The notes beneath the pieces are model-generated. The model searched no databases. It had not been told where the DNA came from and saw only the letters and a list, made by a program, of their open reading frames with translations. The position numbers and the translations under genes were made by a program. A stretch of DNA of 64,000 nt from positions 830,639 through 894,638 of the forward strand of contig OZ241981.1 in the NCBI GenBank assembly GCA_965204345.1. The letters are read 5' to 3'. Each line of letters starts with the position of its first letter. The first letter of the stretch is position 1. Source of the stretch: Nitrosopumilus sp. (GTDB lineage: Archaea > Thermoproteota > Nitrososphaeria > Nitrososphaerales > Nitrosopumilaceae). Shown here piece by piece: positions 19,612 to 49,375 of this stretch.

Positions 19612-19781
19612 TCAATAATAGATTCTACATCGGTTCCTTTTTTGATCATTGATATTTCATAACGGGCAATTTTATTTCGTAATGCCCCCTTGAGAATATC
19701 AATTTCACCTCTAAGCAACGCAATTTCATCTTCAAGCTTTGCAACTCGTTCATAGATGGTTTCAGCTTCTGAGCTCATCAT
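19608..19781 (-). CDS. Small coiled-coil protein (57 aa)
   Basis: Hand-translated MMSSEAETIYERVAKLEDEIALLRGEIDILKGALRNKIARYEISMIKKGTDVESIID; heptad pattern. Confidence 0.65.
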   Translation of the reverse strand: MMSSEAETIYERVAKLEDEIALLRGEIDILKGALRNKIARYEISMIKKGTDVESIID

Positions 19782-21107
19782 TATCTATCAACAAAAAAAT
19801 TGTCTTAAAAAGTTATGGGTAAATATCCTGAGGGGCAGATTAGCTTTTTGAACTATGGCCTAACATAGGCAATACAGGCTGCTTTGACTCATTTTTATGC
19901 TTGAAAAAATCTTCAAATTCCGGTCTTGTTTTCTTAGTACCTACAATATGTTCAAAACTGCAAGTTTCAGAAAATACTTTTTTAATTTTTGATTAATATT
20001 TGGAATTGGCATTGCACGGCAATTTTGCTCATAAAGCCAACTTAGCATTCCATCTATTGCAGAAAATATACAAAATAATCAAAGACAGAAATTTCCTTCA
20101 AAATGAGCATTGCTAACAATTAGCATACGTTCTTTGACATGGCAAAAAACACGTTTGTTCACATCATCTACAAAAATACCATCATTATGCTTTATTCTGT
20201 TCTTTAAAGAAAGAATTTACAATGTTGAATTATTCTCAATGGCTTTTCTTCGCTCTTTACTTTCTGCTTTGATTTGCCTGAGTTGTGATTTAATAGAACT
20301 TTGTCTTTCTTTTTGTAGTCTATCTTGCTCTTCTTTTTGCAGATTAATGATTCAAACTGTTTGCATATGGAACCGTAATGACCAACCTTAGTTTATTTCC
20401 CCTCTCGCACATATACAACAACTAGTCTTGTACGGTCTATTGCACATTTCCCATGACAACTTTTGTACACCATAAAGTCACCTAAAGTGAAAAGAATATC
20501 CTTTTGATGAATTGTGCATGAAAGACATTCTTGCAACAATATATGCAAACCGGTTTAGACTAGGAATTTCTGACGGGATAGTCTTAAAGACATCTCCCTT
20601 CTCTGAATTAAGATATGCTTTGAGATTTTGCATGTCATGCTAGCGCTTTTAATTACTGGCTAGATCAAAAATCAATGAAATTACAAGTCAGACTTGATGC
20701 CAAACGCTGTTTATCAAGTATTGCTGATGAGAATTCAGGCAACCGTTTTAGGGATGAAAATGGACACAGGCTATTAGAATCCAATATTAGCATAGCAAGT
20801 TGTATCCGGCAAAGTTTCAGTGATGTGTAGAATTCAGAAAATATCTCAAATATTGTTTGTCTAATTTAGAAATTCCAGTCCTAAACCATAAAAATATAGA
20901 ATGTTTGTATCAGTACAAACTGCAGATTAGAACTTGGATTTTGAGACTAGTCCCAAATGTATTGGGTGGTTTTTCTCATCCTTTCAGTTATAGGTCGCTT
21001 TCCATTCTGAAACAAGTCTGTGGCCTCTTGTTTGGTTATGACTCGTTTGTTAGCTAATATATGCAGTAAAGCAATCATGCGGTTGTCTTCTTCCTTAGGA
21101 TAAGGCA

Positions 21108-23381: not shown

Positions 23382-23455
23382 TACTAGTTATTTAGTATCA
23401 TAAAACCACAAATGCTTATATATTTATGTGGTTTGATGATACTAAATTATTAGTA
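23382..23455. repeat. 74-bp imperfect palindrome (hairpin)
   Basis: TACTAGTTATTTAGTATCATAAAACCACAAAT vs reverse complement of right arm TACTAATAATTTAGTATCATCAAACCACATAAAT, around a short AT-rich loop. Confidence 0.85.
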
Positions 23456-24902: not shown

Positions 24903-24989
24903 TGGCGCGGGGAGGGGGATTTGAACCCCCGTGTCCTTGCGGACATAGGATTAGCAATCCTACGCCCTACCAGGCTAGGCGATCCCCGC
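24903..24989 (-). tRNA. tRNA-Ser(GCT), CCA encoded
   Basis: GCGGGGA acceptor, TAGGA-TT-GCT-AA-TCCTA anticodon arm, long variable arm GTCC-GCAA-GGAC, TTCAAAT T-loop, G-CCA end. Confidence 0.96.
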
Positions 24990-29396: not shown

Positions 29397-30452
29397 TCAG
29401 CCTTTTAGATCAGTTCGTAACTGACCACAAGCAGCAGAAATTTCTGTGCCCTTCTCAACTCTAACTGTACAGTTTACCCCAGCTTTGGATAAAATCTGTT
29501 CAAATTCATGTATGGTATCCTCAGAAGGGCGCTGAAAATCACCTGCAGTAGGATTAATCGGAATCAGGTTCACATGTGAGCCGTTTCCCTTTAGGAGTCT
29601 TGCTAACTCTGTTGCAATTTCAGGAGAATCATTGACTCCTGCCATAAGGGCATATTCAAAAGTAACACGACGCCCAGTAATTTTAAAATATTTTCTACCC
29701 ATTTTGATTATCTCCTCTACGGAATTAGAGGTGGCAGTAGGAACCAATTTTTTTCTTAATTCATTGTTTGGTGCGTGTAAGGAAATTGCCAGACCAATTT
29801 GCAGGTTTTCTTCAGCAAGTTTTTCAATTCCGGACTTGATTCCAATGGTAGAAATTGTGATGTGCCTTTGGCCTAACCCAAATCCCCTATCATGTGTTAA
29901 AATTTTTACAGCCCTAATCATTTCGTCATAATTTGCCATGGGTTCTCCCATACCCATGAAAACTAAGTTTGTAACGTGTTCTCCTCTTTCTTGCAATAGT
30001 TCTGCAAAGTGTATCACTTGGGATACAATATGTTCTGCCTTTAGATTTGTTTCAAAACCCATTTGTCCAGTTGCGCAAAAGACACATCCCATTGCGCAGC
30101 CAATCTGAGTGGAAACACAGATTGTAGAACGTGGATGACCGCCAATTTTGGATGGGTCATATTGCATCAATACAGCTTCTACAGATTTGTTGTTATCAAG
30201 ATTGAGTAATAATTTTGTAGTGTCGCCATCACGACTTACAATACGATGGGTTTCTTGTGCAGAACCAATCGTGTATCCTGATTCAATCAATTCTTCTCTT
30301 AATTTTTTAGGCAGCTGCGGTATATCATGAAGATCTTTGGGAAATTTGTAATATAATGGAAGTAAAATTTGATCTGCCCTATATCTGGGGTATCCCATAT
30401 CGAGTACAAGCTGTTCCATTTCTTCAGGAAGTAACCTGTAAAGATCAGTCAT
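29397..30452 (-). CDS. rlmN: Radical-SAM rRNA methyltransferase RlmN (bacterial type)
   Basis: CVSTQIGCAMGCVFCATG, FMGMGEP, SLHAP, FEYAL, VNLIP, ISAACGQL. Confidence 0.93.
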   Translation of the reverse strand: MTDLYRLLPEEMEQLVLDMGYPRYRADQILLPLYYKFPKDLHDIPQLPKKLREELIESGYTIGSAQETHRIVSRDGDTTKLLLNLDNNKSVEAVLMQYDPSKIGGHPRSTICVSTQIGCAMGCVFCATGQMGFETNLKAEHIVSQVIHFAELLQERGEHVTNLVFMGMGEPMANYDEMIRAVKILTHDRGFGLGQRHITISTIGIKSGIEKLAEENLQIGLAISLHAPNNELRKKLVPTATSNSVEEIIKMGRKYFKITGRRVTFEYALMAGVNDSPEIATELARLLKGNGSHVNLIPINPTAGDFQRPSEDTIHEFEQILSKAGVNCTVRVEKGTEISAACGQLRTDLKG

Positions 30453-30512
30453 TGGATTTTTCTTATGTTTTGAATTATATTTAATTTAATCAAGAGATGG
30501 TGCAAAATGAGG

Positions 30513-31169
30513 CTAAATTTCCAGATTAAATTTTTTTAATGAAGATTTTAAATCATCCAATCCAATAAATTGAATTGAAGAAATTCCACATTCTTGTGCA
30601 GATTCTACGTTTGATAATTTATCATCAATAAACAACATTTCATGTTCTTTAAAAGGCAAATGTTCGATTACATGTTTGTAAACTCTAGAATCAGGTTTTG
30701 AATGTCCAATTTGGTAAGACATGAATTTATATTCAAAATGTTCCAACATTTTCCAATCTTCAACAACATCATGAGTTACTTTTTCTATATTAGATATTAT
30801 TCCAATTGTAAAGCCATTTTCTCGAAGTGAAGCAGCAAGATTTTGTACATCCTGGTTAGGTTCTGCATTTTTTCTAAAATATGTAGTCCATAATGATTCA
30901 GAACTATTCTGTAATAAAGAGGACGATCCAGTATGATCTGCAACATATTTCCAAAATAGAGGCTCATCTATCTTTCCTGAATCCAATTGAATCAAATATT
31001 TATCAAAAGCATCAATTAATTTTTCTTCGTTAACCTCAAACCTATCTGAAACTTCTTTTGTTATCCATGACTGGTGCCAATCAACTAGCACACCGCCAAT
31101 ATCAAAAAGAATACATTTGATTTGAGTCATACAGAAAGCCCTATCAAAGGAGTATTCAAAGATTACCAA
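30513..31169 (-). CDS. HAD-family phosphatase; true start probably ATG at 31130 (MTQIKCILFD)
   Basis: FDIGGV, ISN, SKPD, FIDD motifs. Confidence 0.9.
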   Translation of the reverse strand: MVIFEYSFDRAFCMTQIKCILFDIGGVLVDWHQSWITKEVSDRFEVNEEKLIDAFDKYLIQLDSGKIDEPLFWKYVADHTGSSSLLQNSSESLWTTYFRKNAEPNQDVQNLAASLRENGFTIGIISNIEKVTHDVVEDWKMLEHFEYKFMSYQIGHSKPDSRVYKHVIEHLPFKEHEMLFIDDKLSNVESAQECGISSIQFIGLDDLKSSLKKFNLEI

Positions 31170-31188
31170 ATAAAAGAAAAAGAATTGG

Positions 31189-32604
31189 TTATTTTTCTAC
31201 AGGATCTAAATCATCAGATTCGATTTCTACTGTAGCTTCTGCCTCAGGTGTCTCTACTGTAGCTTCTGCCTCAGGTGTCTCTACTGTAGCTTCTGCCTCA
31301 GGTGTCTCTACTGTAGCTTCTGCCTCAGGTGTCTCTACTGTAGCTTCTGCCTCAGGTGTCTCTACTGTAGCTTCTGCCTCAGGTGTCTCTACTGTAGCTT
31401 CTGCCTCAGGTGTCTCTACTGTAGCTTCTGCCTCAGGTGTCTCTACTGTAGCTTCTGCCTCAGGTGTCTCTACTGTAGCTTCTGCCTCAGGTGTCTCTAC
31501 TGTAGCTTCTGCCTCAGGTGTCTCTACTGTAGCTTCTGCCTCAGGTGTCTCTACTGTAGCTTCTGCCTCAGGCTCTTTTGCCTTTTTAGCTGCCTTTTTG
31601 GTAGTTGTCTTTTTGGTAGTCTTTTTTGTCTTTTTCTCAACTTCTTCAGGATCAACTATGCCTGCTTCACCTAGAGCAAAGATTACTTCCTCTTCAGGAT
31701 GATGAGGACTGTCCACCATTCGGGCAATTCGTTTTTTGCCAGATTTCTTAAAGTAAATTCTATAGGTACTTGTATGTGCAACTACATTTCCACCAATTGG
31801 GCGAGTTGGATCTCCAAAGAAGACATCAGGGGATGCCATGACTTGGTTTGTTGCAATTGCAGCGCAGTTGTATGTTTCTGCAATTCTAGACAACAAATGA
31901 ACAAAATGATTCAGTTTTTGTTGTCTAACAGATAGTGTTCCTCTACCAAGATATTCAGCACGGAACAATCCAACTGCAGAATCTGCAACAATGAGTTTGA
32001 CGTTGTTTTCTTCAATTACAGGACCAGCTTCTTCTAAAATCAACACTTGATGTGCACTGTTATATGCACGAGCAACTATGATGTTATCTAAAACTTTTTC
32101 AGGATCCATATCATGGGCTTGAGCAATTGCCACAATTCTTTCAGGTCTGAAAGTATTTTCAGTATCAATATACAAAACAGAGCCTTCAAGGCCGCCTTCT
32201 TCTTTGGTTTTTTGAACCATGACAGACAAGGTATGTGCAAATTGTGTTTTGCCACAACCAAATTCTCCATAGACTTCAGTTAATGCCTGGGTTTCAATGC
32301 CACCATCAAAGAGAGTATCTAAACAATTGGTACCAGTTGTAATTTTACCAATACTTTGTCTGTATTTGTAAATCTCACTTGCACTTACAAAATCTTTGGC
32401 AATTAATCCACCTTCAACTAAGTGTTGCCTGGCTTTGTTTACAATTTTTTCAGCAGTATCTTTTTCCATTCCAGTGATATCTGCAATTTCAACAGGTCCC
32501 CTAACGATGAGGTCCATGACGTTGTGGATACCTGCATCGGATAATTTTCTTGTAGTTACAGGACCTACGCCCTCTAAACTATCTAATCTTAAATCTTCTA
32601 CCAT
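31189..32604 (-). CDS. radA: DNA repair recombinase RadA with basic-then-acidic repetitive C-terminal tail
   Basis: HhH N-domain, GEFGCGKT, IDTENTFRPER, VADS, LFRAEYLGRG, GGNVVAHTS. Confidence 0.96.
   Translation of the reverse strand: MVEDLRLDSLEGVGPVTTRKLSDAGIHNVMDLIVRGPVEIADITGMEKDTAEKIVNKARQHLVEGGLIAKDFVSASEIYKYRQSIGKITTGTNCLDTLFDGGIETQALTEVYGEFGCGKTQFAHTLSVMVQKTKEEGGLEGSVLYIDTENTFRPERIVAIAQAHDMDPEKVLDNIIVARAYNSAHQVLILEEAGPVIEENNVKLIVADSAVGLFRAEYLGRGTLSVRQQKLNHFVHLLSRIAETYNCAAIATNQVMASPDVFFGDPTRPIGGNVVAHTSTYRIYFKKSGKKRIARMVDSPHHPEEEVIFALGEAGIVDPEEVEKKTKKTTKKTTTKKAAKKAKEPEAEATVETPEAEATVETPEAEATVETPEAEATVETPEAEATVETPEAEATVETPEAEATVETPEAEATVETPEAEATVETPEAEATVETPEAEATVETPEAEATVETPEAEATVEIESDDLDPVEK
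31222..31572 (-). repeat. 27-bp tandem repeat x13 encoding PEAEATVET
   Basis: Unit TGTCTCTACTGTAGCTTCTGCCTCAGG; 351 bp = 13 units, 12 identical, last ends VEI. Confidence 0.97.
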
Positions 32605-32635
32605 ACCGTATAGTACGGTACTAGTACTTTATAAG
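32604..32635 (-). promoter_or_regulatory. radA promoter: TATA-like box plus two overlapping palindromes
   Basis: TACCGTA-TAG-TACGGTA (32604-32620), GTACTAGTAC (32618-32627), TTATAAA on minus strand at ~32628-32634. Confidence 0.5.
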
Positions 32636-32999
32636 CTTATTGTTCAAGGTACACTATTCCAAACTCGGGACATTTGCACCTAGTGTTCAATTCGGGATAT
32701 GGAATCTAACCTGATCCAATATCTAATTTTATTTCGCTTTCAATGTTTTTGATATGAATACAACATTGTCGCTTTTTGTTATGATTTTTTTTAGTTGTGT
32801 ATAGTAGCATCTATTTTGTTGTAAAATGAAAGTCACAGAGCCATTACATTAAGACAAGATTAGCACATTGGATTGAACATATCATTGCTGAGACATTGCT
32901 AATTTTACTAATTGATGGATTTGTTGCACATAAGCAATCAAGATAAACAGCAATAAAAAATATTTTTATTAATGATGTACCAAAAAATAGGTTAGTTTA

Positions 33000-33557
33000 A
33001 TGTCGCATAAAATCAAATTGTTTTACATCGATGATAACTCACTAAAGCAATTGGGAGAGTTGCTAAGCAATGAAACGAGTAGAAGTATAATTAAAGCATT
33101 AATTGAAAAAGAACATTATACAAATGAGCTTGCTGAAAAACTAGGCATACAAGTGAGTCTAGTAATACATCATCTCAAAAAATTAGAGGAGTTAAACCTA
33201 GTTAATGTAACAAAAAAACGTATTGTAAAAAAGGGAGTTGAACGCAGATTTTTTAGAATAAAATCCGACATTTTCATAACAAAGACAACAAAAGAAGGCG
33301 ATTCCAAAATAGAAGGATTTAAAAAAATCTTCAATGATGGCATAAAATTTGTTGCAATAGGCATTGTATCTGCACTATCTTACATCACTACAAAGTATTA
33401 TGAGAGTACAGAAAAAGTGGTCTCTCATGATAGTGGTGGTGGTATTGAGTATATCCCAGTAATAGAATATCCAATAATAATTGCGCTAGCTGTAATTATT
33501 CTAGGACTTGCAATAGATAGAATTATCTTGTTTAAAAAAAATAAAAGGAGGGGTTAG
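33000..33557 (+). CDS. ArsR-type HTH regulator with two C-terminal transmembrane helices
   Basis: LSNETSRSIIKAL..YTNELAEKLGIQVSLVIHHLKKLEELNLV; TM FVAIGIVSALSYIT and YPIIIALAVIILGLAI. Confidence 0.85.
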   Translation: MSHKIKLFYIDDNSLKQLGELLSNETSRSIIKALIEKEHYTNELAEKLGIQVSLVIHHLKKLEELNLVNVTKKRIVKKGVERRFFRIKSDIFITKTTKEGDSKIEGFKKIFNDGIKFVAIGIVSALSYITTKYYESTEKVVSHDSGGGIEYIPVIEYPIIIALAVIILGLAIDRIILFKKNKRRG

Positions 33558-34730
33558 AGTCCCCAGGATAGTCCAGAAAAATTATTTGTAAATTGATTGT
33601 GTTTTACAAAATAGGCATTATTACTAGAGCCTGCCACATGTATTCCAACAAATCCCGGATCTCCACTAAATGCTTCTGTTACAGGTGCACCACTATCACC
33701 ACCGGCACGAACGTATGTAGTTGATACGACATCCTGCAATATGGTATTAGATTGTGACACGTACAAAAAAGTACTTGGATTTGTAACATAACCCGTCTCA
33801 ACACCTGATACTGCACCATACATCTTTACCCAATCATTTTCAGACACATTATGCGTATGATCTGTAATATCTGTCTGAAAGACCTAGTATTGCTTCAGCT
33901 ACAGATACTGTGGACTCTATAAATGCACAATCACAGTACAATAGCCAGTTGTTCCTATCAAAGGTTTCTCGTACAACTGTTCCAATCACTCTTGCCAATG
34001 TTGGTTGGCCAACATCATCTCCAATACTTCCATCTGTACAATGACCTGCTGTAACAAAGCCTTCTGCACCATTGTATGTTGCCTTGAGACCTACAGTACA
34101 GTAGCCATGATCTTGCATTTGCATTTGTGTACCACCTTCAATTGGATCACATCTAAAAGATGCAGTTGGACATTCATCACTATACACACGATCACCGGGT
34201 TCTACTATTACCTTGATATGATTTGGTACTATATCTGCAATGAAATCTGCATATCTCTGCATGTCTTGGGGAGTTACATGATCAGGATCGATTCCAACCA
34301 GTATGGCATCTGCTACAGAACTATATCCAACAGTTGTAAAAGGAATTACACGCTTGTCTAGACTTTGACGGTTTTCGTCAACTAGTTTTTCAACTAATTT
34401 TGCAGTAGATAGTCTGTACTCTAATTCTTTTTCTGGATTGACTTCAGGCAGTTTGGATAGTGCATCTTGCTTTACTTGCTGCATCTTGTGCAGAATTTCT
34501 TCTTCTTTAGCTGATGTGTCTGCGTCTTCTAGCTTTTGTTCGATCTTAACAAGTTTTTTTGCAGCATCATCCATTATGTGGTTTTTGAACTTTTCTGTCT
34601 TTATGACAACGTTTTTTATACTGTCGGCATCACTTGCCTCTACAAGATTGCTACTGCCAAGTGGCAGTATTATTGTAGCAATCAAGGATGCAAACAGTAC
34701 TGTTTTGAAGTTGTTTCTAGTCATTATCAT
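33554..34730 (-). pseudogene. Secreted chymotrypsin-like (S1, alpha-lytic-type) serine protease split by one frameshift near 33870-33885
   Basis: Signal peptide plus prodomain; His motif FVTAGHC and Asp CDCAFI in 33849-34730; Ser motif GGDSGAP in 33554-33847; frames join as GLS/TDITDHTHNVSENDWVKMYG. Confidence 0.85.
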
Positions 34731-34897
34731 TACAATAAATCATTGATTACTTAAGAAAATCTTTAATTTGAATTGATCATGTTTCACTTGAAAATCCCAA
34801 TCAAAAAATGCCTAGACAAAATAGATTCCTAGTTCTTGAGGCCTTACAGTTGTTAATTACAAGTGAAAGAAACTATTACAATCACTCAAACTTAATT
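34663..34897 (-). repeat. Left copy of ~235-bp promoter + signal-peptide cassette
   Basis: Reverse complement aligns to 37138-37369 with 14 substitutions and one 3-bp indel (hand alignment); ~100 bp core identical. Confidence 0.95.
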
Positions 34898-35009
34898 TTC
34901 TTGGAAATGTAAGACATCAAACATAGATTAAAGATATGTTAACTGCAATTCAAAAAGAAAAACAACAACACAGAAGACACACAGAATATCATAAGCAGGA
35001 TGACCACCT

Positions 35010-35195
35010 ACTAAAAAAGCAACTAAAAAGACAAAAGAGCCTGAGGTAGAGGCTACAGCAGAGACACCTGAGGTAGAGACCAACAGAAATCGAATCTGAT
35101 GATTTAGATCCTGTAGAAAAATAACCAACTCTTTTTCTTTTATTTGGTAATCTTTGAATACTTTGATAGAGTTTTTTGTATGACTCAAATCAAAT
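35010..35195 (+). pseudogene. Inverted, degenerate copy of the radA 3' end, terminator and first codons of the HAD gene
   Basis: Encodes TKKATKKTKEPEVEATAETPEVET../EIESDDLDPVEK* then the intergenic and ATGACTCAAATCAAA; matches reverse complement of 31115-31250 and ~31570-31600. Confidence 0.92.
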
Positions 35196-35347
35196 TGTAG
35201 GACATGATAAAACTAAGAATTCAGAGCACTATTGTATCGATACTAGGTTGAAACATTATGCGATTAATCAAAAGAATATGATGCAAATAAAAGAATGAAT
35301 ATGACAACTAGAAAAATCAAACAATAACATTGTTTGTTTTTTGATAA

Positions 35348-36606
35348 TTAGAGTACTCTGCTTAATTTTTCATGTATATATTGACCATCTTCATCAAATA
35401 AGGGACATTTCATTATTTCAAAATAATTGTAAATCTCATCCATTATAGATGAAGTAATTTTACTATAATTTGCCTTTAGATATGATGACGGAACATTCCT
35501 TTCGACATATGACGTTTTCATATATTCAGTTGGAGAAGTTCCTTCAACAGCTTCTGTTTTGGGGGAAGAAAATATTTGATAATCGTCACTCCGTTCTCCA
35601 TCCTCTAACCCCCATGCAGAATTATTACTTTGTAATTTAACTAATATTTTTACGTCTCCAAAATAATTGTATTGTGAAAAAATATCTTCTGCAAACTGTA
35701 AAACATGCATTAATTTTACAGCCAGAAATGGAAGTCTTATGAAACTAACTTTTAGATTACCATTATGATGTTGTATGTCTTTATCATAGCCTATATCATG
35801 AATATGTTGTATGCATCCATTTCTGTGAACTGCAAGTGCTCTCTTTTCATCCATGCTATTAAAAAAAATCCCTAATTTGTGAGGATTTGGAAATCCTGGA
35901 AGGAAGCCATAACGTCTAGCATTAAAATATCCGGATGGTTCATAATTCACAACATTTGGATTTAATCTATCATATACATTGCGTTTAGTTACATCAATCA
36001 AATTATTATTCAAAATGATAGGAATTACAACGATTTGTGCTTGTAAAGTTTGTGCAATCTCAAGTCGTACTTGATGAAATCGCGTAAGTGGAAACTGTAA
36101 AACAGATCTTTTTAGATATTCTTTGAGATCATCCAAGTTATGAAATCTATTTTTATACATGTCAGATATCTCTTGCTCTTGCATAGGTATTGATTCGAAT
36201 TGAAATCGTTTGTAATATCTTTGAGATTTATTGTCAAAATGAGGCCTGTATCCGCTATCAGGTATTTGTAAAATTAGAAATGAATTGTCTTTTTCATTAT
36301 TTACTATTTTTTGTTTTATCTGTAATCTGGGGAAAATATTTGATAGTATTATTTGTTCAATTCGTTCTTTATTGATTTTCTCAGAAATTCCATTTATTGC
36401 AATAGGATACCACCTTTACCCGATTCTTTTATTCCAAATGCAATATGTCCGCCATGAGTATTTGCAAACGCGCTAACTTGTTTTGTTAATTCTGCGTCCC
36501 CTATAATGCATTCTTTATAATCCAAAATATCGCTTTCAGGCATCTTGTTATCCATTAATGATTTAATATCATCATATTCTAAATAATCAATATTTTTTGT
36601 AATCAT
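35348..36606 (-). pseudogene. Schlafen AlbA_2 (ATP-binding/DNA-binding) domain gene with two frameshifts (~36410 and ~36280)
   Basis: PESDILDYKE..KQVSAFANTHGGHIAFGIKE..GG/YPIAING..ERIEQII../FLILQIPDSGYRPH..YYKRFQFESIPMQEQEISDMYKNRF joins the 70-aa and 278-aa ORFs. Confidence 0.85.
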
Positions 36607-36709
36607 TGTTTTTAGTAATTCCTTATAGATTTAAATTAATTTACTGTTTTGAATATCTCAGATTTGTTTAGATTTATTCGTGATTCAGAATAAAATTTCA
36701 TATAAACAA

Positions 36710-37085
36710 TTTAAATTAATATGATATATTATTTTCTTGCAGTTCCACTTCCAAACAAATACCTTCCCACAGTAGACATTGATGAAAATAATAAAATTTG
36801 TACCATGTAAGATCATCAAGAATCATCGTTTTAGTATCATGTAGATAAACAATAATGAAGCATGTCACTGCTATGCCTAATCCAGCTATAAGAAAAATTC
36901 TTTGTGTTATTGTGGTGTCTATTTCCGTAGTTTTTTAACATCTTCCATTATACCCACCTTACCCGTTTTCTACATCTTGGACATGGTGTCTTACCTTTTT
37001 GAATTACTAGATTGCAGTAAGGACATCGGTATATTTTTGAATCAGAATCAACAATTGATTTTAAAATCGCCGCTCCAATTGCCTG
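36710..37085 (-). pseudogene. Remnants of a small Zn-ribbon gene (RCPYC...CPRC) and a downstream membrane-protein gene
   Basis: AIGAAILKSIVDSDSKIYRCPYCNLVIQKGKTPCPRCRKRVRWV* has no start; next frame MEDVKKLR/IDTTITQRIFLIAGLGIAVTCFIIV is broken. Confidence 0.5.
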
Positions 37086-37137
37086 TTATGGTATGTCGTG
37101 TAGAAGGCGTACTGATAAACAGATCTGAAAATGTAGG

Positions 37138-37369
37138 AATTGAGTTTGAGTAATTGTAATAGTTTCTTTCATTTGTGATTAACAACTGTAAGGTCTCAAC
37201 TAAGAATCTATTTTGTCTAGGCATTTTTTGATTGGGATTTTCAAGTGAAACATGATCAATTCAAATTAAAGATTTTCTTAAGTAATCAATGATTTATTGT
37301 AATGGTAATGACTACAAACAACTTCAAAACAGTACTGTTTGTATCTTTGATTGTTGCAATGATAATGCC
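37138..37369 (+). repeat. Right copy of ~235-bp promoter + signal-peptide cassette
   Basis: Inverted repeat of 34663-34897; includes TTTCAAGTGAAA near-palindrome, TTAAGTA box ~20 bp upstream of the ATG and codons for MVMTTNNFKTVLFVSLIVAMIMP. Confidence 0.95.
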
Positions 37370-38498
37370 GTTTTCTGCAACAGATATGGCTTTTGCAGAA
37401 TCATCGACTGATGTTAAAATCAATGAATACAAACAAAAAGCACTACGAGATAATGAGGTACCATATGATGAACTACTCCAAAGAGTTGGTGATAAATGGT
37501 TATCTAGTTACAAAGATGCGCAGCATTTTGAAATTTCTGAAAAAGCTGTAAACAAATTTGTTGAAAGAAACAAGGTAAAAGACGGTCTGGATAATGAAAA
37601 TGCAAAACTAATTTCTAAAATCCACAACTTTGAGACAATTACAGAATCTGTTGGTGACGGCCACGAAATTGTATTGCTGGTAGCTCAACTAGATAAAGCT
37701 AATGGCAAATACAACCCAAGTGAAACTGTTTCAAGATACCATGATTGGATTGAAGAACAATATACAGTTCCAACAACCGAAAATGGTGTTATAGATAGAC
37801 TAATAGAGATTCTTGGTGACAAAAAACTTGTTAACTTGGCAAAAAAACATGCCAATAATTTTAACAAACTAGCTGAACTCGGTAGCGTTCCAATCGAATT
37901 ATTCATTTCAGATGAAGATTACTGGGGCGAAGTTTCACATGTTGCCTATTGTCAACGAGATTCAAAATGTGATGTTGATGCACTAAAACATCAACCGGGT
38001 GCAACAGCAGAAGAAATTGAAAGAATCCAACAAATAGAGGCTGAAGTAAACGATGTATCATTTGATCTTTGGGATCTAGTTTTACCAGAAGCATACGCTT
38101 GGACCAAAGTTCAAGTTTCATATGATCTCCATGGTAAAATAAAACTAGGTGCATGCTATTATAAAAACTGTGATGAAATCTGGGATGAAACAACCATGGG
38201 GGCAGACTCAATTGATCATGATAGTTATGGCTTCCCCAATTTAAGGCATGTTGAAAGAGATTATAGCATGTATTTCCATGGAAGAGTATGTGACAACTAT
38301 ACTGGTTCACAAACCATTGTCAATAAAGTTGAAACAACTCCATACCTAGCACAATCTTTGCGAACAGATTTGAGTGATGATGATATAAAAATCAACAGAT
38401 GTGCGTATGCTAGTCATAATGATTCCTCAGCATCCCATCCATTTATTGTTGGAATTCTCGTAGAAAGTCCTGGCTCCTATTATTGGACCAACCAATAA
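37302..38498 (+). CDS. Secreted protein of unknown function (398 aa)
   Basis: Signal peptide ending MAFA; Cys-containing C-terminal region (YCQRDSKC, GACYYKNC, RVC, NRC); no recognisable catalytic motif. Confidence 0.8.
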   Translation: MVMTTNNFKTVLFVSLIVAMIMPFSATDMAFAESSTDVKINEYKQKALRDNEVPYDELLQRVGDKWLSSYKDAQHFEISEKAVNKFVERNKVKDGLDNENAKLISKIHNFETITESVGDGHEIVLLVAQLDKANGKYNPSETVSRYHDWIEEQYTVPTTENGVIDRLIEILGDKKLVNLAKKHANNFNKLAELGSVPIELFISDEDYWGEVSHVAYCQRDSKCDVDALKHQPGATAEEIERIQQIEAEVNDVSFDLWDLVLPEAYAWTKVQVSYDLHGKIKLGACYYKNCDEIWDETTMGADSIDHDSYGFPNLRHVERDYSMYFHGRVCDNYTGSQTIVNKVETTPYLAQSLRTDLSDDDIKINRCAYASHNDSSASHPFIVGILVESPGSYYWTNQ

Positions 38499-38500
38499 CC

Positions 38501-38515
38501 TTTTTTTCTTTTTTT
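38501..38515 (+). terminator. Oligo-T archaeal terminator
   Basis: TTTTTTTCTTTTTTT directly after the stop codon. Confidence 0.55.
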
Positions 38516-38529
38516 GATGATACTAATAC

Positions 38530-39081
38530 ATGAAAAATTCAATTCTGCTAATAGTTGGAATTATTGCAATAGTAACAGTGGTGATTCCACTTAATTACAA
38601 TGCATTGACTGATCATTACACATACACAGCACCAATAAAAAATAGTAAAATTTATCCTAATTATACACATGTTGATAGCCCTCTATTCAAAGGAATTAAT
38701 GACACATTTTCAGAGAAATTAATTGACATTACATTGATAGATGCCCAAACTGTGAAAATTAATTTTAGGAATGATGGTGAACTGCCTCCTTGGCCAATAA
38801 ATGATTTTGAAGACTTTGAAAGAGAATTTGGTGTCGGCGATAGTTTTGTTACACGCTGTCAGGAAGATGCAAAAGATTCCACTAGTTATCTTACAATTCT
38901 ACAGTTTAATGGCACAAGACAAATCAAAGAAGATATCTTTGCTGACTTTATTCATGCAGATGCCTCATCCAAAGCATTAATCCCTTGCAATTATCCCCAA
39001 ATAGTGGATTATTCAACAAACATCTTTGAATTGAATACCATAATTGATAATGAATTCATTTGGAAGTTCAAAGAAGGATAG
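38530..39081 (+). CDS. Membrane-anchored extracellular hypothetical protein
   Basis: N-terminal hydrophobic helix, soluble domain with two Cys. Confidence 0.75.
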   Translation: MKNSILLIVGIIAIVTVVIPLNYNALTDHYTYTAPIKNSKIYPNYTHVDSPLFKGINDTFSEKLIDITLIDAQTVKINFRNDGELPPWPINDFEDFEREFGVGDSFVTRCQEDAKDSTSYLTILQFNGTRQIKEDIFADFIHADASSKALIPCNYPQIVDYSTNIFELNTIIDNEFIWKFKEG

Positions 39082-39208
39082 TATTAGAAGAGACATCTAT
39101 GAATAATTTTTTGTCCAACATACTCAAGATTAAAAAAAATACAAGAAGATAAGTTTTGATCAGAGTTAAGAGAGCATTGTGATCTGACAGTGGAAGAGTC
39201 ACAAAAGC

Positions 39209-39464
39209 ATGCCATCTGAAATACTAAAAATTTATTGTGAGGATATAAAATTGATCAGTACAAATTTTGCAAGTATTTCATTCTCATCAACTCATCCAAA
39301 TCAAGCAGTGGAGACTGGCAATATTGCAGAGTCAACACTAGAACTGTCATCAGATGTAATAGATTTGGATACAACGATATCTTCCAAAAGATGACAAAGA
39401 ACAGAAAAAAGTTTGGAAACTTCTTAAGGGAAGGGTTGATTCATATGTGAATCCTAGAAAATAA
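39209..39464 (+). pseudogene. Frameshifted hypothetical gene upstream of the PIN-like gene
   Basis: ..STHPNQAVETGNIAESTLELSSDVID continues in another frame as IWIQRYLPKDDKEQKKVWKLLKGRVDSYVNPRK*, ending 6 bp before the next ATG. Confidence 0.45.
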
Positions 39465-39470
39465 CACCGC

Positions 39471-39746
39471 ATGACAGAGATTGAATTTCTCTTAGATGAA
39501 AATGCTTTAGGTCTGGCAAGATTTTTGGAAAACAGTGTAAAATACAGAAAGGTAGGAGATAATGGATGTCCTGCAAAGGAAGCAGGGGATCCAGAGGTTG
39601 TAAAGTTTGCAAGAGAGAATAATTTGGTTATTGTTACCAGAGACACCAAAATGATAGAGCAATGCAAGTTCGAAAATATAAAATGTGTCACATTTACTGA
39701 CACAGACTTTGCCAGAAAAGTGGTAGATTATACAAAGACTGTTTGA
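39471..39746 (+). CDS. DUF5615/Mut7-C-type PIN-like protein
   Basis: FLLDEN, GDPEVVKFARENNLVIVTRD. Confidence 0.8.
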   Translation: MTEIEFLLDENALGLARFLENSVKYRKVGDNGCPAKEAGDPEVVKFARENNLVIVTRDTKMIEQCKFENIKCVTFTDTDFARKVVDYTKTV

Positions 39747-39841
39747 TGTCCCAAAAGGGTGCTACCTGTTGTTTGTACCACAAAGATAACAGAACCTGTC
39801 TAAAAAGATGATCGTAAAACGGCGAAATATTCTAAGACAGA

Positions 39842-40024
39842 CTAGCGCCTTTTTCTTCTTTGTCCGGGTTTGTTTTGGCCAGGATATCTGCCCAAGACAA
39901 ATCGTTTCTTAAAATTACTTTTGTTACCAACACTAGAACTAGTACCTACAATTTTTCTACCCTCAACCTTGGGGGTTTGACCTCTTACTTTTCCTGCCTT
40001 GGTAAGCGAACCGTGTGTTGCCAT
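39842..40024 (-). CDS. rps30e: 30S ribosomal protein S30e
   Basis: HGSLTKAGKVRGQTPKV. Confidence 0.95.
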   Translation of the reverse strand: MATHGSLTKAGKVRGQTPKVEGRKIVGTSSSVGNKSNFKKRFVLGRYPGQNKPGQRRKRR

Positions 40025-40067
40025 AGTCTGAGTGAAGAATTAGTAAATTTATGTATTTGGATAACTA

Positions 40068-41801
40068 CTACCAGTATTTGGCCTTTACAGTCTCTATGAC
40101 TTTTTCATGCTCCTTGCTCTTTCTACGTGCATATTTCTCCATTGCGCCAAGAGGTACACCGCCAAGGGAGCGGGCTATGGCATTAAAGAAGTATCTCTGC
40201 GGACCTTTTGCTCCAGTTTTAGTCATGAATTTTTGAATACCATATTTGAAGTTGTGTTGCCAAGTCTTGTAAAGGACGCCCAATTGTGCAGGAGTCATTT
40301 CGTTTCCAATATGGAAAAAGTCAGATTTTTCCAACAGGCCAATTGGGACAAAGGTCAAGGCAGTTGCAGTAAACATTGAATCAGGTTGCTCGTGTTCTAA
40401 TTCACTAAGTAGCCTAATGGTCTCCCAGGAATCTTCAGGAGTTTCATCATTATCAAGGCCCATGATTAATGTAAATGCGGGAATCCAGTAATCCTGATTC
40501 AAAGTTTTAACACCCTCCTTGACAACCCAGTGCCACTCAGACGGATCATATGGTGCAAGCTTTCTATCAGCATATTTGCCAATTAGCCTAAGACTGCCAG
40601 TCTCAAATCCTGCTTGGATGCCAATCATATTATCAGGACCTGCCCTCATGATTCTAGATAAATTAGGAATCAGTTTCTCATCTGCAATAGCTCCTGCCAA
40701 GGTACCGTGAGTCGGATTCGTATGCTCAACCCCGGTGGACATGATTGCAGTGAATAGTTCTTCCAAAGCCTCTCGGTTTGGCTCCATGCCTTTTGCAGTT
40801 CTAGGATCCATTCCATAAACAAAAATATCATCACTGTGAATCCATGCAGACTTTGAACCGCCTTTCTTTATGTTGACCTGAATCTCCTTTTTGACTTTTT
40901 CTGGAGAATAGTATCTCAAAGATCGTAGCGTGACATCACAAAACTTGCAGCCCCTGCCACAGCCTCTCATTACTTCAACCATTCCATGCATGCTAGGCTC
41001 GACTATATCAGGAATTTCTTCTAGTTCCGGCCTGTCCCAGAAATTGACAAATCTGCCATGAATTTTTTTGCCTTCCCTCTCAAATTCTTTAATGTTAACT
41101 TTGAAATCGCTTCTCTTTCTGAAAGGATCCATGTTTTCAAAATCACCGTTAATCAAATAGTTAAAGAAACGACCTGCATGTCCATCAATTTCAGGTGCGA
41201 TACCGCCGAGTTCTCCTTCTAGAATTGCATAAATTCCAAATTCTTCAATTTTTGCAGGATCATAATTGTATTGCCAGGTGCCAGATGCGCCAGAAATTAC
41301 TTTGGCCTTACTTCCGGTTCTTGCCTTGGCATCCTTAATTCTGTGATGCAGCTCTGCATTGTAAAATTCATCATAAGATGTCTGCTTTCTGCCATAGGTA
41401 AAGGTCATGGTAACCGGACCCATTCCAAGAGGATCCATCTCATAAGTTCCAATAACTTCAGTCTCAGGACCAATGAATTTTTCAATATGGTTTGGATGCG
41501 CAACTACAACATCCTGTCTGCTAAAGCCGTCACGAAGCAGTCCGGCTTCTAATTTTCTCAAGCCATATGGAGCATACTTTGCAACACCGTCAATGTCAGG
41601 GGACCAATTACATATAAAGTCAAATAAGACTTTGGGAGTTACCTGATTTTTCAAAATCTTGTACCAAAAACTGCTTTTGTCCCTATTAGGATCAAGTGCC
41701 GGAGCACATCCAAAAAAGGTTGCAAGTGATAGCCCCCTATAAGGTGACATCAGTGTCCTATCAGCCGTCAAGACTATCTTTGGATGACCCATACCCTTCA
41801 C
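40068..41801 (-). CDS. Radical SAM protein (archaeal, B12-binding-like N-region)
   Basis: EVMRGCGRGCKFC CxxxCxxC; GFETGS. Confidence 0.88.
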   Translation of the reverse strand: MKGMGHPKIVLTADRTLMSPYRGLSLATFFGCAPALDPNRDKSSFWYKILKNQVTPKVLFDFICNWSPDIDGVAKYAPYGLRKLEAGLLRDGFSRQDVVVAHPNHIEKFIGPETEVIGTYEMDPLGMGPVTMTFTYGRKQTSYDEFYNAELHHRIKDAKARTGSKAKVISGASGTWQYNYDPAKIEEFGIYAILEGELGGIAPEIDGHAGRFFNYLINGDFENMDPFRKRSDFKVNIKEFEREGKKIHGRFVNFWDRPELEEIPDIVEPSMHGMVEVMRGCGRGCKFCDVTLRSLRYYSPEKVKKEIQVNIKKGGSKSAWIHSDDIFVYGMDPRTAKGMEPNREALEELFTAIMSTGVEHTNPTHGTLAGAIADEKLIPNLSRIMRAGPDNMIGIQAGFETGSLRLIGKYADRKLAPYDPSEWHWVVKEGVKTLNQDYWIPAFTLIMGLDNDETPEDSWETIRLLSELEHEQPDSMFTATALTFVPIGLLEKSDFFHIGNEMTPAQLGVLYKTWQHNFKYGIQKFMTKTGAKGPQRYFFNAIARSLGGVPLGAMEKYARRKSKEHEKVIETVKAKYW

Positions 41802-47443: not shown

Positions 47444-48026
47444 AGCCTAAACAAACAAGATACAATTCGCTGCTTTGTTTTCTACTAGCAACAGGTTTTG
47501 TAAGATTGGTTCTGGCAAATTTTTTCTTGATATAATCTCTGAATTCCATCGAGAATTCACCGTCAAAAACTTTGAAGACTGCATTGCCTTTGTGAGCTAA
47601 AACTTTGGACATGATTTTTGTGCAACTATAATTCAGGGAAATTTGTCTAGCATGATCAATAGACCAATTTCCACTAACCTGAGGAGAGAGATCGCAGATT
47701 ACAGCATTGACTTTACGCCCAAAGTAAGACATAACTTCATCAACGACATGCTCATCTTCAATATCTTCTCGGATTATATGAGCTCCAGGGATTTCTTCAA
47801 CGTAGGACAGGTCAATCCCCATTACCTTTCCTTGGTTTCCAACCAACTTCATAGCCATTTGAGTCCAACCTCCTGGTGCACATCCAAGATCTAGTACATT
47901 AAAACCAGGACCAATCAGGCGATAAGACCGGTTTAATTCTTGTAGTTTGAATGCAGCCCTGCTTCTAAAACCCTGCTCATGGGCTAATCTGCGATAGTGA
48001 TCTTTGCGTGCATCTGCTAGTTTCAT
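47433..48026 (-). CDS. rlmE: 23S rRNA (uridine-2'-O)-methyltransferase RlmE/FtsJ
   Basis: RSRAAFKL, LDLGCAPGGW, ICDLSP, SRKQSSELY. Confidence 0.95.
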   Translation of the reverse strand: MKLADARKDHYRRLAHEQGFRSRAAFKLQELNRSYRLIGPGFNVLDLGCAPGGWTQMAMKLVGNQGKVMGIDLSYVEEIPGAHIIREDIEDEHVVDEVMSYFGRKVNAVICDLSPQVSGNWSIDHARQISLNYSCTKIMSKVLAHKGNAVFKVFDGEFSMEFRDYIKKKFARTNLTKPVASRKQSSELYLVCLGFTG

Positions 48027-49324
48027 TTAGCCTTCACGGGTTTCTTTAATTCAGCAATTACCCAATCTTCAATGAATTGGCAATTTCTAGGACTAATCTC
48101 ACCGTCAAGTGAACATTTCTGTTCTACAGGACAAACTAAACATGGTGCATTTTCAATTGACTGTGTACTAATTGGAGTTTTCTTTAAAATTAATTTGTAT
48201 GTCCAACGATTATTTTCAAGGAGTTTTTCTCTAGTAATTGTACCCATTCTTTCAAGTTTCAGTGCTAAACGAGAACCAATCTGATTTGTAAGCTTGAGCT
48301 TTTTCCAGAGTTCGCCTTGGAACATTCCATCAGACTCTTTTTCAGCTAAAATATCAGAAACTTTGTTTGTTAACCTTTCCATGTCAACCTTTTCAATTTG
48401 GAAATTTTCAATTTCTTCATCAGTAAGCTGTTCTTCTAATTCTTCTTCGAGGGTTAATTCTTCTATTCTTTTAGCTTCTTCTAATTCTTTTTTGGTTAAT
48501 TTCTTTACTTTAGCAGGTTTTGCCTCAACTACTTTTGCAGGTTTTTTGGCAAGTTTCTTTGCAGGTTTTGCCTCAGCTACTTTTGCAGGTTTTTTGGCAG
48601 GTTTCTTTGCAGGTTTTGCCTCAACTACTTTTGCAGGTTTTTTGGCAGGTTTCTTTGCAGGTTTTGTCTCAACTACTTTTGTAGGTTTTTTGGCAGGTTT
48701 CTTTGCAGGTTTTGTCTCAACTACTTTTGTAGGTTTTTTGGCAGGTTTCTTTGCAGGTTTTGCCTCATCTTTCTTTGTAGCAGATGAATCTGGCATTTCC
48801 TTTTTCTTTTTTAATTTGGCAGGTTTTGTCTCAACTACTTTTGTAGGTTTTTTGGCAGGTTTCTTTGCAGGTTTTGCCTCAGCTACTTTTGCAGCAGATG
48901 AATCTGGCATTTCCTTTTTCTTTTTTAATTTGGAAGCTTTCTTTGCAGGTTTTGCCTCAGCTACTTTTGGAGCAGATGAATCTGGCATTTCCTTTTTCTT
49001 TTTTAATTTGGAAGCTTTCTTTGCAGGTTTTGCCTCAGCTACTTTTGCAGGTTTTGCCTCAGCTACTTTTGCAGGTTTTGCCTCAGCTACTTTTGCAGGT
49101 TTTGCCTCAGCTACTTTTGCAGGTTTTGCCTCAGCTACTTTTGCAGCAGATGAATCTAGCATTTCCTTTTTCTTTTTTAATTTGGAAGCTTTCTTTGCAG
49201 GTTTTGCCTCAACTACTTTTGTAGCAGATGAATCTAGCATTTCCTTTTTCTTTTTTAATTTGGCAATATCTGCCTTTATTTTTTCTGCTTCTTCAATTAG
49301 AGTATCTTTTTTCTTTGCCATCAA
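48023..49324 (-). CDS. RPC34-like / TFE-beta protein with long histone-H1-like Lys/Ala/Pro repeat N-terminus
   Basis: C-terminal wHTH (MFQGELWKKLKL..LALKLERMGTITR) and Fe-S motif PCLVCPVEQKC..ISPRNC. Confidence 0.82.
   Translation of the reverse strand: MMAKKKDTLIEEAEKIKADIAKLKKKKEMLDSSATKVVEAKPAKKASKLKKKKEMLDSSAAKVAEAKPAKVAEAKPAKVAEAKPAKVAEAKPAKVAEAKPAKKASKLKKKKEMPDSSAPKVAEAKPAKKASKLKKKKEMPDSSAAKVAEAKPAKKPAKKPTKVVETKPAKLKKKKEMPDSSATKKDEAKPAKKPAKKPTKVVETKPAKKPAKKPTKVVETKPAKKPAKKPAKVVEAKPAKKPAKKPAKVAEAKPAKKLAKKPAKVVEAKPAKVKKLTKKELEEAKRIEELTLEEELEEQLTDEEIENFQIEKVDMERLTNKVSDILAEKESDGMFQGELWKKLKLTNQIGSRLALKLERMGTITREKLLENNRWTYKLILKKTPISTQSIENAPCLVCPVEQKCSLDGEISPRNCQFIEDWVIAELKKPVKAK
48520..49260 (-). 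repeat. Nested tandem repeats (24-, 48-, 78-bp units)
   Basis: Five exact 24-bp copies at 49021-49140 (PAKVAEAK); repeated PAKKPAKKPTKVVETK and LKKKKEMPDSS blocks; outer boundaries approximate. Confidence 0.93.
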
Positions 49325-49375
49325 ATCACCTTCTTTTTTAATTTAATTTCTTGTTTATCAATCAATATTTCATTC

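What the first reader, a model, noticed from the sequence alone, without database searches (positions are those of the whole stretch)
31115..35195. Inverted fossil copy of the radA 3' end interleaved with the leader inverted repeats
Seen: 35010-35195 (+) repeats the radA tail, stop codon, terminator and the first codons of the downstream HAD gene (native copy 31115-~31600 on -), but with only ~2 degenerate repeat units instead of 13. The two repeat pairs interleave (A1..B1..A2..B2). Inference: recombination across A would invert radA-ArsR-protease, give RadA a short tail and turn the B cassettes into direct repeats; recombination across B would do the same to A. This is a shufflon-like geometry next to the recombinase gene itself, or the scar of an inversion/allele import that marks radA as an island hotspot.
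Basis: partly seen in the sequence, partly recalled or inferred. Interest (0 to 1): 0.7.

Follow-up and report, generated by a model that had tools for sequence, protein, structure and literature searches.

The report
Decayed inverted radA-end copy in island
A real ~190-base inverted, broken copy of the end of the recombinase gene radA sits in a strain-variable gene island just upstream of radA in a sponge-associated Nitrosopumilus; it looks like a rearrangement scar at a recombination hotspot, not a programmed DNA switch.

Summary
Window 35005-35195 (+) is an inverted partial copy of the radA 3' end, stop codon, intergenic region and first 5 HAD codons (native 31115-31607, -). It interleaves with a second inverted pair, B1 34663-34897 and B2 37138-37369.

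Independent short-read assemblies from 2010, 2019 and 2024 carry both fossil junctions, so it is not an assembly artefact.

- **Location.** The copy lies inside a 7.15-kb flexible island (32650-39800) between the S30e gene and the radA promoter. In 25 of 66 informative Nitrosopumilaceae species this spot holds an insert or rearrangement. One species (L071) has radA alone flipped.
- **Hotspot.** radA does mark a hotspot, but on its 5' side, not its 3' end.
- **No switch.** No site-specific recombinase was found among the ORFs scanned. The fossil is frameshifted and cannot supply the conserved acidic RadA end. No fossil RNA was seen. A close co-occurring strain lacks the fossil, and many window-type genomes lack B2.
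- **Orientation.** The three repeat-spanning contigs all show the window's orientation.

A 78-nt near-identical core within diverged flanks hints at gene conversion between the arms. Rare homologous flipping therefore cannot be excluded without long reads. It is a scar of ordinary kind.

The parts
30513..31169 (-). HAD-family hydrolase gene downstream of radA. The probable true start is the ATG at 31130.
   Evidence: Pfam HAD_2 3.7e-15. Present downstream of radA in 11 of 80 relatives.
31115..31607 (-). A1, the native template of the fossil. It holds HAD codons 1-5, the intergenic region, the radA stop codon and last 12 codons, the 13 x 27-nt array, and the K-rich linker.
31189..32604 (-). radA (Rad51/RadA recombinase) with a repeat tail. 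It is transcribed.
   Evidence: Pfam Rad51 2.8e-88. Metatranscriptome contigs cover 31543-32592.
32605..32649 (-). Conserved radA promoter and 5' region. Homology to all relatives stops at 32644-32651.
32650..39800 (.). A 7.15-kb strain-variable flexible island inserted between S30e and the radA promoter.
   Evidence: Synteny with 80 loci. GC falls to 0.30. Co-occurring strains show alternative junctions at 32649/32650.
33000..33557 (+). ArsR-family HTH protein with a C-terminal membrane segment.
   Evidence: Pfam HTH_5 1.3e-11
33554..34730 (-). prot1, a secreted alpha-lytic-protease-like serine protease. It is split by a frameshift near 33848 and transcribed across the break.
   Evidence: PDB alpha-lytic protease E about 0.01 on the read-through sequence. 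The L058 homologue is in one frame.
34663..34897 (-). B1: the first 23 codons (signal peptide) of prot1 plus about 165 nt upstream.
   Evidence: The outer edge at 34897 is a breakpoint when compared with B2-type strains.
34898..35004 (.). A 107-nt spacer of unknown origin between B1 and the fossil.
   Evidence: No significant similarity to anything tested
35005..35195 (+). A2, the fossil: an inverted partial copy of the radA linker, about 2 units, the end of the gene, the stop codon, the intergenic region and HAD codons 1-5. It is frameshifted.
35085..35162 (+). The 78-nt near-identical core of A1/A2 (1 mismatch, at 35129).
   Evidence: Fisher p = 0.016 against the flanks.
35348..36630 (-). 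Frameshifted AlbA_2/Schlafen-domain pseudogene (three ORF pieces). No transcript was detected.
   Evidence: Pfam SLFN_AlbA_2 on two pieces in different frames. 1-nt indel polymorphism at 35891. No RNA contigs.
36951..37085 (-). Small zinc-ribbon ORF in the outer flank of B2.
   Evidence: DZR_2 0.0016, below cut-off
37138..37369 (+). B2: the inverted partner of B1, holding the prot2 signal peptide and upstream region.
37302..38498 (+). prot2, a secreted protein of unknown function. It shares only its first 39 residues with prot1.
   Evidence: A C-terminal homologue lies next to radA in L003.
36960..38342 (.). A 1383-bp stretch deleted in part of the population. The deletion removes B2 and most of prot2.
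   Evidence: Joint 36959>38343 seen in X2-X7 and X16
39842..40024 (-). Ribosomal protein S30e gene, the conserved right flank of the hotspot.
   Evidence: Pfam Ribosomal_S30 1.8e-9. Synteny.

Best explanation
A2 (35005-35195) is a non-functional, decaying pseudogene fragment: a roughly 195-bp inverted partial duplicate of the radA-3'-end/HAD-5' junction. It lies inside a flexible genomic island that occupies a recurrent insertion and rearrangement hotspot between the S30e gene and the radA promoter.

Inferred origin: the fragment was copied once, in inverted orientation, during an illegitimate rearrangement that also created the B1 breakpoint at 34897. That event was probably a replication- or repair-associated template switch, or a duplicative inversion.

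Inferred later history: the native tail array was homogenised to a new unit (PEAEATVET), while the fossil kept the older PEVEAT-type units and picked up a frameshift and indels. Short-tract gene conversion between the two arms probably kept a 78-nt core nearly identical.

The arrangement is not a programmed switch. Ordinary homologous recombination across the 44- and 33-nt identical stretches could occasionally flip 31229-35084. Such a flip would leave radA (full tail, stop codon) and the HAD promoter intact and would change no protein.
For: Shown:
- The copy is real and is seen independently in other datasets.
- It is closest to the window's own native copy, not to any relative. It shares the lineage-specific ...PVEK* ending but keeps majority-type PEVEAT units, whereas the native has PEAEAT.
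- It has a frameshift and a scrambled last unit. No further radA or HAD remnants flank it.
- It sits in an island that is absent from 41 of 66 informative species and is replaced by other inserts or rearrangements in 25.
- The island carries pseudogenes: a frameshifted protease and a frameshifted AlbA_2 gene. It has low GC, a toxin-like DUF5615 gene, and polymorphism within the population.
- A 99%-identical co-occurring strain (X22) lacks the fossil. Its contig runs unbroken through the native core.
- No recombinase or transposase was found among the ~36 ORFs/ORF pieces scanned with Pfam.
- No RNA contigs cover 34914-37370, while radA and prot1 are covered.
- All three contigs that span a whole A-repeat core show the window's orientation: X8 over A2, and X16 and X22 over A1; only X8 and X16 bear on fossil-bearing genomes.

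Suggestive: the core has 1 difference in 78 nt against 12 substitutions plus 2 indels in about 110 flank nt, p = 0.016.
Against: The mechanism that made the copy is inferred, not shown. Microhomologies at the patch ends are only about 3 nt, which chance could give. The uneven divergence could also come from selection on the terminator and promoter, or from homogenisation of the native array, rather than from gene conversion. Orientation heterogeneity could not be tested: only k=31 contigs are available, and they break inside both repeats. A radA-only inversion in L071 shows that flips of this gene do become fixed in nature.
Confidence: 0.68

Rival explanations
1. A recurrently flipping, recombinase-independent invertible segment. 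RadA-dependent homologous recombination between A1/A2 and B1/B2 keeps several isomers in the population, changing gene orientation and the promoter context of prot1, prot2 and radA.
For: Both repeat pairs have an exactly or nearly identical core within diverged edges (78 nt in A, 101 nt in B). That is expected if the arms recombine. Relatives show fixed inversions at this locus, in L071 and L003.
Against: No strand-changing joints appear in 16 runs, and the three repeat-spanning contigs give one orientation, although sensitivity is very low. A flip at either pair turns the other pair into direct repeats flanking radA, so a further crossover would delete an essential-looking gene. B2 is absent from many genomes. 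No protein product would change.
Confidence: 0.18
2. A remnant attachment site of an integrative element that once targeted the radA 3' end, as some thaumarchaeal elements target the 3' ends of protein genes. A later recombination across B turned the direct att repeats into inverted ones.
For: The duplicated piece is a gene 3' end plus downstream sequence, as in 3'-distal integrations (14 of 68 thaumarchaeal elements, PMC6563490). Flipping the B-bounded segment would make A1 and A2 direct repeats (geometry).
Against: No integrase or integrase fragment was found. After an imagined B flip the direct repeats would enclose the radA body itself, not lie downstream of it. At about 190 nt the repeat is far longer than the att lengths cited for crenarchaeal elements in PMC6563490 (29-69 bp), which also calls thaumarchaeal att/TSD sites generally short. 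radA did not appear among the target genes in the passages of PMC6563490 that were read. The island boundaries lie at the radA promoter, not its 3' end.
Confidence: 0.07
3. A site-specific shufflon or inverton that swaps RadA C-terminal tails or secreted-protein heads.
For: Only the interleaved inverted-repeat geometry next to a recombination gene.
Against: No serine or tyrosine recombinase was found. The repeats are long, graded-identity gene fragments. The fossil tail is out of frame and lacks the conserved acidic terminus. The fossil region is silent in RNA data. The fossil is absent from a 99% identical strain.
Confidence: 0.02
4. An assembly artefact, with a chimeric or misjoined repeat.
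For: None beyond the general risk at repeats.
Against: Both unique-to-repeat junctions are recovered in independent runs from 2010, 2019 and 2024 at chromosomal depth. One contig spans the whole fossil with 0 mismatches.
Confidence: 0.01

Closest known systems
Flexible genomic islands at conserved hotspots, with gene remnants (as described for marine prokaryote populations; from general knowledge)
   Same: The flanks (S30e and radA) are conserved while the content varies between species and between co-occurring strains. The island has low GC, pseudogenes, a toxin-like gene, and indel polymorphism.
   Different: The remnant here is not a leftover of island cargo. It is an inverted partial copy of the adjacent core gene's 3' end, lying 3.4 kb from its template.
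Templated or inverted patch insertions from replication template switching (FoSTeS/MMBIR-type, fold-back copying; from general knowledge)
   Same: A short patch (about 195 bp) was copied from a nearby template in inverted orientation. It sits between two junctions that have no homology.
   Different: The mechanism is not demonstrated. Microhomology at the ends is only about 3 nt, and this process has not been characterised in Nitrosopumilus.
Shufflons and invertons (Rci, Hin/Gin-type site-specific inversion)
   Same: Interleaved inverted repeats that could, on paper, generate several isomers.
   Different: There is no recombinase, no short defined crossover sites, no in-frame alternative coding segments, and no evidence of isomers.
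3'-distal integration of thaumarchaeal mobile elements into protein genes (Krupovic et al. 2019, PMC6563490)
   Same: Duplication of a gene's 3' end next to foreign DNA.
   Different: The repeats are inverted rather than direct. There is no integrase. The island abuts the 5' end of radA. The repeat is several times longer than known att sites.

Membership tests
Shufflon / site-specific invertible segment | A dedicated serine or tyrosine recombinase gene in or next to the segment | tested here: not met
   Pfam scans of the main island ORFs and ORF pieces, plus about 27 other window ORFs, gave no integrase, resolvase, invertase or transposase. Not every small ORF was scanned.
Shufflon / site-specific invertible segment | Short, conserved crossover sites as the inverted repeats | tested here: not met
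   The repeats are 190-235-nt partial gene copies with identical cores and diverged edges.
Shufflon / site-specific invertible segment | Alternative in-frame coding segments for the target protein | tested here: not met
   The fossil reads ...PEVETNRNRI* in the tail frame. The conserved IESDDLDPVEK end is out of frame.
Shufflon / site-specific invertible segment | Both orientations present in one population | tested here: inconclusive
   Only k=31 contigs were available, and they break in the repeats. The three spanning contigs show one orientation and there are no strand-change joints. No long-read runs were found.
Integrated mobile element with att duplication at a gene 3' end | Direct repeats (attL/attR) flanking the element | tested here: not met
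   A1 and A2 are inverted.
Integrated mobile element with att duplication at a gene 3' end | Integrase encoded in the element | tested here: not met
   None found.
Integrated mobile element with att duplication at a gene 3' end | Element boundary coincides with the duplicated 3' end when compared with empty sites | tested here: not met
   The island boundaries are 32649/32650 (the radA promoter) and about 39800 (S30e). The fossil is internal to the island.
Flexible genomic island at a conserved hotspot | Same conserved flanks with different or no content across relatives | tested here: met
   41 baseline loci, 16 with inserts of 0.2-8 kb, 7 with no flank within 3.8-10 kb upstream, and 2 rearranged, out of 66 informative loci.
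Flexible genomic island at a conserved hotspot | Variation within the population at the same site | tested here: met
   Several alternative sequences join at 32649/32650. A 1383-bp deletion variant exists. The X22 strain lacks 32808-37019.
Flexible genomic island at a conserved hotspot | Compositional deviation and decaying cargo | tested here: met
   GC is 0.30-0.35 against about 0.36-0.40 elsewhere. The protease and the AlbA_2 gene are frameshifted.
Silent-cassette gene conversion (pilE/pilS-like) | Silent in-frame donor cassettes that diversify an expressed gene | tested here: not met
   There is a single fossil and it is out of frame. Only the invariant end is shared at high identity.

The most novel reading that the evidence does not exclude
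The radA locus of Nitrosopumilus could be a self-referential recombination hotspot. On this reading, inverted partial copies of radA's own 3' end, seeded into the upstream island, act as substrates for RadA-mediated flipping of the recombinase gene and its neighbours. The population would then hold several isomers, and occasional fixed flips would result, such as the radA-only inversion in L071.
Probability: 0.08. Interest if true: 0.55.

Novelty: new member of a known kind. Interest (0 to 1): 0.22.

Why it matters
This result mainly prevents over-reading. The structure is a genomic scar, not a new switch.

Its modest value is as a dated marker of how a flexible island next to an essential recombination gene was built. 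It preserves an older version of the rapidly evolving RadA repeat tail. It also pinpoints a short S30e-radA intergenic spacer as a recurrent insertion and inversion hotspot across Nitrosopumilaceae. That is useful for island detection, MAG quality control and strain tracking in sponge symbionts.

Tried and rejected
1. Exact-protein look-ups of two island proteins (orf278 and ArsR) in public assemblies returned nothing on record.
2. A fossil-specific 30-mer, and the 30-mer of the alternative junction in the X22 strain, had no hits in genome contigs or metagenome contigs. No second assembly of this species was therefore available to polarise the events.
3. A search for long-read runs found none.
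4. I first considered the C/T difference at 35129 between runs as a sign of recombination. I rejected it: X1, X2 and X4 come from the same sample yet differ, which fits arbitrary bubble-popping by the contig assembler.
5. I looked for extra radA, HAD or rlmN remnants around the fossil, and for similarity of its 107-nt and 152-nt flanks to other island parts. None was significant.
6. I looked for second radA-tail copies in 80 relatives within ±10 kb and found none.
7. An Rfam scan of 30000-40500 gave nothing meaningful, and there is no tRNA at the island borders.
8. A head-to-head duplication of the whole radA gene followed by decay was considered. It cannot be excluded, but no remnant of the gene body supports it.
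Full report
**Organism and layout.** The window comes from a Nitrosopumilus. RadA relatives are all Nitrosopumilus or Nitrosarchaeum, with best amino-acid identity 96% and about 89-90% at the nucleotide level. The sequence is found in sponge-associated runs.

Around the finding, the minus strand carries rlmN (29397-30452), a HAD hydrolase (30513-31130/31169) and radA (31189-32604). RadA ends in a K-rich linker, 13 identical 27-nt units (PEAEATVET) and the terminus IESDDLDPVEK.

**Observation check.** The inverted copy is real. Three matches define it:
- 31151-31228 against 35085-35162: 78 nt at 99%.
- 31535-31607 against 35005-35077: 73 nt at 88%.
- 31115-31149 against 35161-35195: 35 nt at 91%.

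The BLAST E-value reaches 1.8e-54. The fossil runs from the linker through about two units, the last 12 codons, the stop codon and the T-rich intergenic region, into ATGACTCAAATCAAAT, which is HAD codons 1-5. No homology extends beyond about 35000-35199, and no other radA, HAD or rlmN remnants lie in the neighbourhood.

The second pair is B1 (34663-34897) and B2 (37138-37369). They are 93% identical over 235 nt, with an exact 101-nt stretch at 34728-34828. Each comprises the first 23 codons (signal peptide) and about 165 nt upstream of one of two otherwise unrelated secreted proteins.

**Not an assembly artefact.** Contigs covering 34799-35162 and 35133 onwards are present at chromosomal depth in runs of three studies (2010, 2019, 2024). 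In the low-depth run X8 a single 469-nt contig (34831-35299) spans the whole fossil with no mismatch.

**Genomic context.** In most relatives the block orf577-S30e lies about 310 bp upstream of radA, and rlmN follows radA directly or after HAD. In the window, homology to every relative stops at 32644-32651, just upstream of the conserved 45-nt radA promoter region. It resumes at about 39800, at S30e (39842-40024). So 32650-39800 is a 7.15-kb insertion on the 5' side of radA, and the fossil lies inside it.

Of 66 informative loci:
- 41 have the baseline arrangement.
- 16 carry inserts of 0.2-8 kb.
- 7 have no flank within 3.8-10 kb upstream.
- 2 are rearranged.

In L071 radA alone is inverted between rlmN and S30e. 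The junction there carries a weak rve_3-like transposase C-terminal remnant, E = 0.0055, below the Pfam cut-off. In L003 the block from radA towards the tRNA-Ser side is inverted relative to S30e, and a 257-nt 93% inverted repeat sits in its distal island.

The 3' side of radA is comparatively stable. HAD is present in 11 of 80 loci and there are two larger inserts. radA therefore does mark a hotspot, but at its promoter side.

**Island content.**
- An ArsR-type regulator.
- prot1, an alpha-lytic-protease-like gene split by a frameshift near 33848, yet transcribed across the break.
- A frameshifted AlbA_2/Schlafen pseudogene.
- A small zinc-ribbon ORF.
- prot2 and orf183. Homologues of the prot2 C-terminus and of orf183 lie directly upstream of radA in L003.
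- A DUF5615/Mut7-C toxin-like gene.

GC falls to 0.30. No recombinase, integrase or transposase was found among the ~36 ORFs/ORF pieces scanned with Pfam.

**Population evidence.** Metagenomes contain several alternative sequences joined at 32649/32650.

The dominant strain in run X22 differs at only 2 of 672 nt across the HAD-radA-tail junction. It has B2-prot2-orf183 but lacks 32808-37019, and so lacks the fossil. Its contig runs unbroken through the native core (30563-31234), whereas in fossil-bearing runs contigs break at 31164-31180.

A 1383-bp deletion (36959>38343) removes B2 and most of prot2. It is seen in X2-X7 and X16. In X5-X7 it is at the full depth of the window-type island, while the prot2 contig present there is the X22-type allele. 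The interleaved geometry is therefore not fixed.

B1's outer edge (34897) is a breakpoint. A low-depth strain continues with sequence resembling the outer flank of B2. A third protein body joined to a B-type head is also present (loose end at 34662).

**Transcription.** Metatranscriptome contigs cover radA (31543-32592) and prot1 (33547-34713). Nothing covers 34914-37370. Contig absence is weak evidence.

**Age and history of the copy.** The fossil is closest to the window's own native copy and shares its lineage-specific ...PVEK* ending; relatives have ...EE*. Its units, however, are the majority PEVEAT type, while the native array is uniformly PEAEATVET. In the tail frame the fossil reads PTKKATKKTKEPEVEATAETPEVETNRNRI*. 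A scrambled last unit with a net 2-nt loss puts the conserved acidic end out of frame.

Differences are unevenly spread. There is 1 in the 78-nt core against 12 substitutions plus 2 indels in about 110 flanking nt (Fisher p = 0.016). B shows the same pattern of an exact core with diverged edges.

My inference is as follows. The copy was made before the native array was homogenised. Both copies then diverged. The cores have probably been kept alike by short-tract gene conversion, though selection on the terminator and promoter, or array homogenisation, could explain part of the pattern.

**Consequences of recombination (inference from the sequence).** The only long identical stretches in A (44 and 33 nt) lie downstream of the tail units. 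A crossover there would flip 31229-35084 while leaving radA (full tail, stop codon) and the HAD promoter intact, so no protein would change. A crossover further left would produce a frameshifted RadA lacking its conserved terminus.

A flip at either pair turns the other pair into direct repeats bracketing radA. One further crossover could then delete radA. The present state, with both pairs inverted, is the deletion-safe one.

**Orientation test.** The three contigs that span a whole A-repeat core show the window's orientation: X8 over A2, and X16 and X22 over A1. The X22 contig comes from the strain that lacks the fossil, so only X8 and X16 bear on orientation in fossil-bearing genomes. No strand-changing joints were reported in 16 runs. 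Because k=31 contigs break in both repeats, this says little about minor isomers. No long-read runs were available.

**Comparison with known systems.** The structure fails the defining features of a shufflon or inverton: there is no recombinase, no short crossover sites and no in-frame alternatives. It also fails those of a 3'-distal att duplication by an integrative element: the repeats are inverted, there is no integrase, the island borders lie at the radA promoter, and radA did not appear among the target genes in the passages of PMC6563490 that were read. It meets the features of a flexible island at a conserved hotspot. The fossil is best viewed as a templated or duplicative rearrangement scar, with the exact mechanism unresolved.

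**Verdict.** The 'shufflon-like' half is not supported. Rare homologous flipping remains possible and is testable with long reads. Interest is low to moderate.

Noticed in passing
window 31189-31640; loci L001-L071 radA 3' ends: The RadA of this clade carries a C-terminal extension: a K-rich linker, then (PEVEATVET)n, then a conserved acidic end ESDDxxPVEE. The unit number n ranges from 2 to about 27 between species (13 identical PEAEATVET units here). The array is transcribed.
   Followed up: partly
L071 8275-13286 (NZ_CBDCVU010000004.1): radA alone is inverted in place between rlmN and S30e/orf577. The 590-nt junction holds what looks like the C-terminal remnant of a DDE transposase (FHNYFRPHMSLGGKTPAE; rve_3 E = 0.0055, below cut-off). 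This hints at an IS-mediated flip.
   Followed up: partly
L003 10001-21197 (OZ242186.1): The conserved block from radA to near the tRNA-Ser side is inverted relative to S30e/orf577. A 257-nt 93% inverted repeat (17218-17474 / 19670-19922) lies in the distal island. A truncated prot2 homologue and an orf183 homologue sit right upstream of radA.
   Followed up: partly
window 36960-38342: A 1383-bp deletion polymorphism (joint 36959>38343, 4-nt microhomology) removes B2 and most of prot2. It is seen in runs from 2010, 2019 and 2024 and is absent from run X1.
   Followed up: partly
window 33554-34730: The alpha-lytic-protease-like gene is split by a frameshift near 33848. The His motif (TAGHC) is in one piece and GDSGAP in the other. 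All runs agree with the frameshift, yet the gene is transcribed as one RNA in sponge metatranscriptomes.
   Followed up: partly
window 32650-32708: A 59-nt stretch just outside the radA promoter appears in several different left and right contexts in co-occurring strains (loose ends at 32650, 32670, 32697, 32708). It has no Rfam or tRNA match. Its nature is unknown.
   Followed up: partly
window 39100-39770: The region holding a DUF5615/Mut7-C (PIN-like toxin) gene is hypervariable between samples, with dozens of substitutions and indels, while the neighbouring sequence is near-identical.
   Followed up: no
window 34662 (B1 inner edge) and 34897 (outer edge): The B 'head' (promoter plus signal peptide MxMTxNNFKTVLF...) is joined to at least a third, different protein body in the metagenomes. 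Similar leaders occur in the radA-adjacent islands of L058, L023 and L016.
   Followed up: partly
window 35348-36630: An AlbA_2/Schlafen-domain gene is broken into three frames. There is a 1-nt indel polymorphism at 35891 between samples.
   Followed up: partly
window 48501-49265: A diverged tandem or internal repeat (about 71-78% identity over 280-615 nt) lies inside overlapping ORFs 48023-49324 (-) and 48294-49346 (+).
   Followed up: no
window 23382-23455: A 74-nt imperfect palindrome (78% self-complementary) lies about 1.4 kb from tRNA-Ser (24903-24989), in a low-GC stretch.
   Followed up: no
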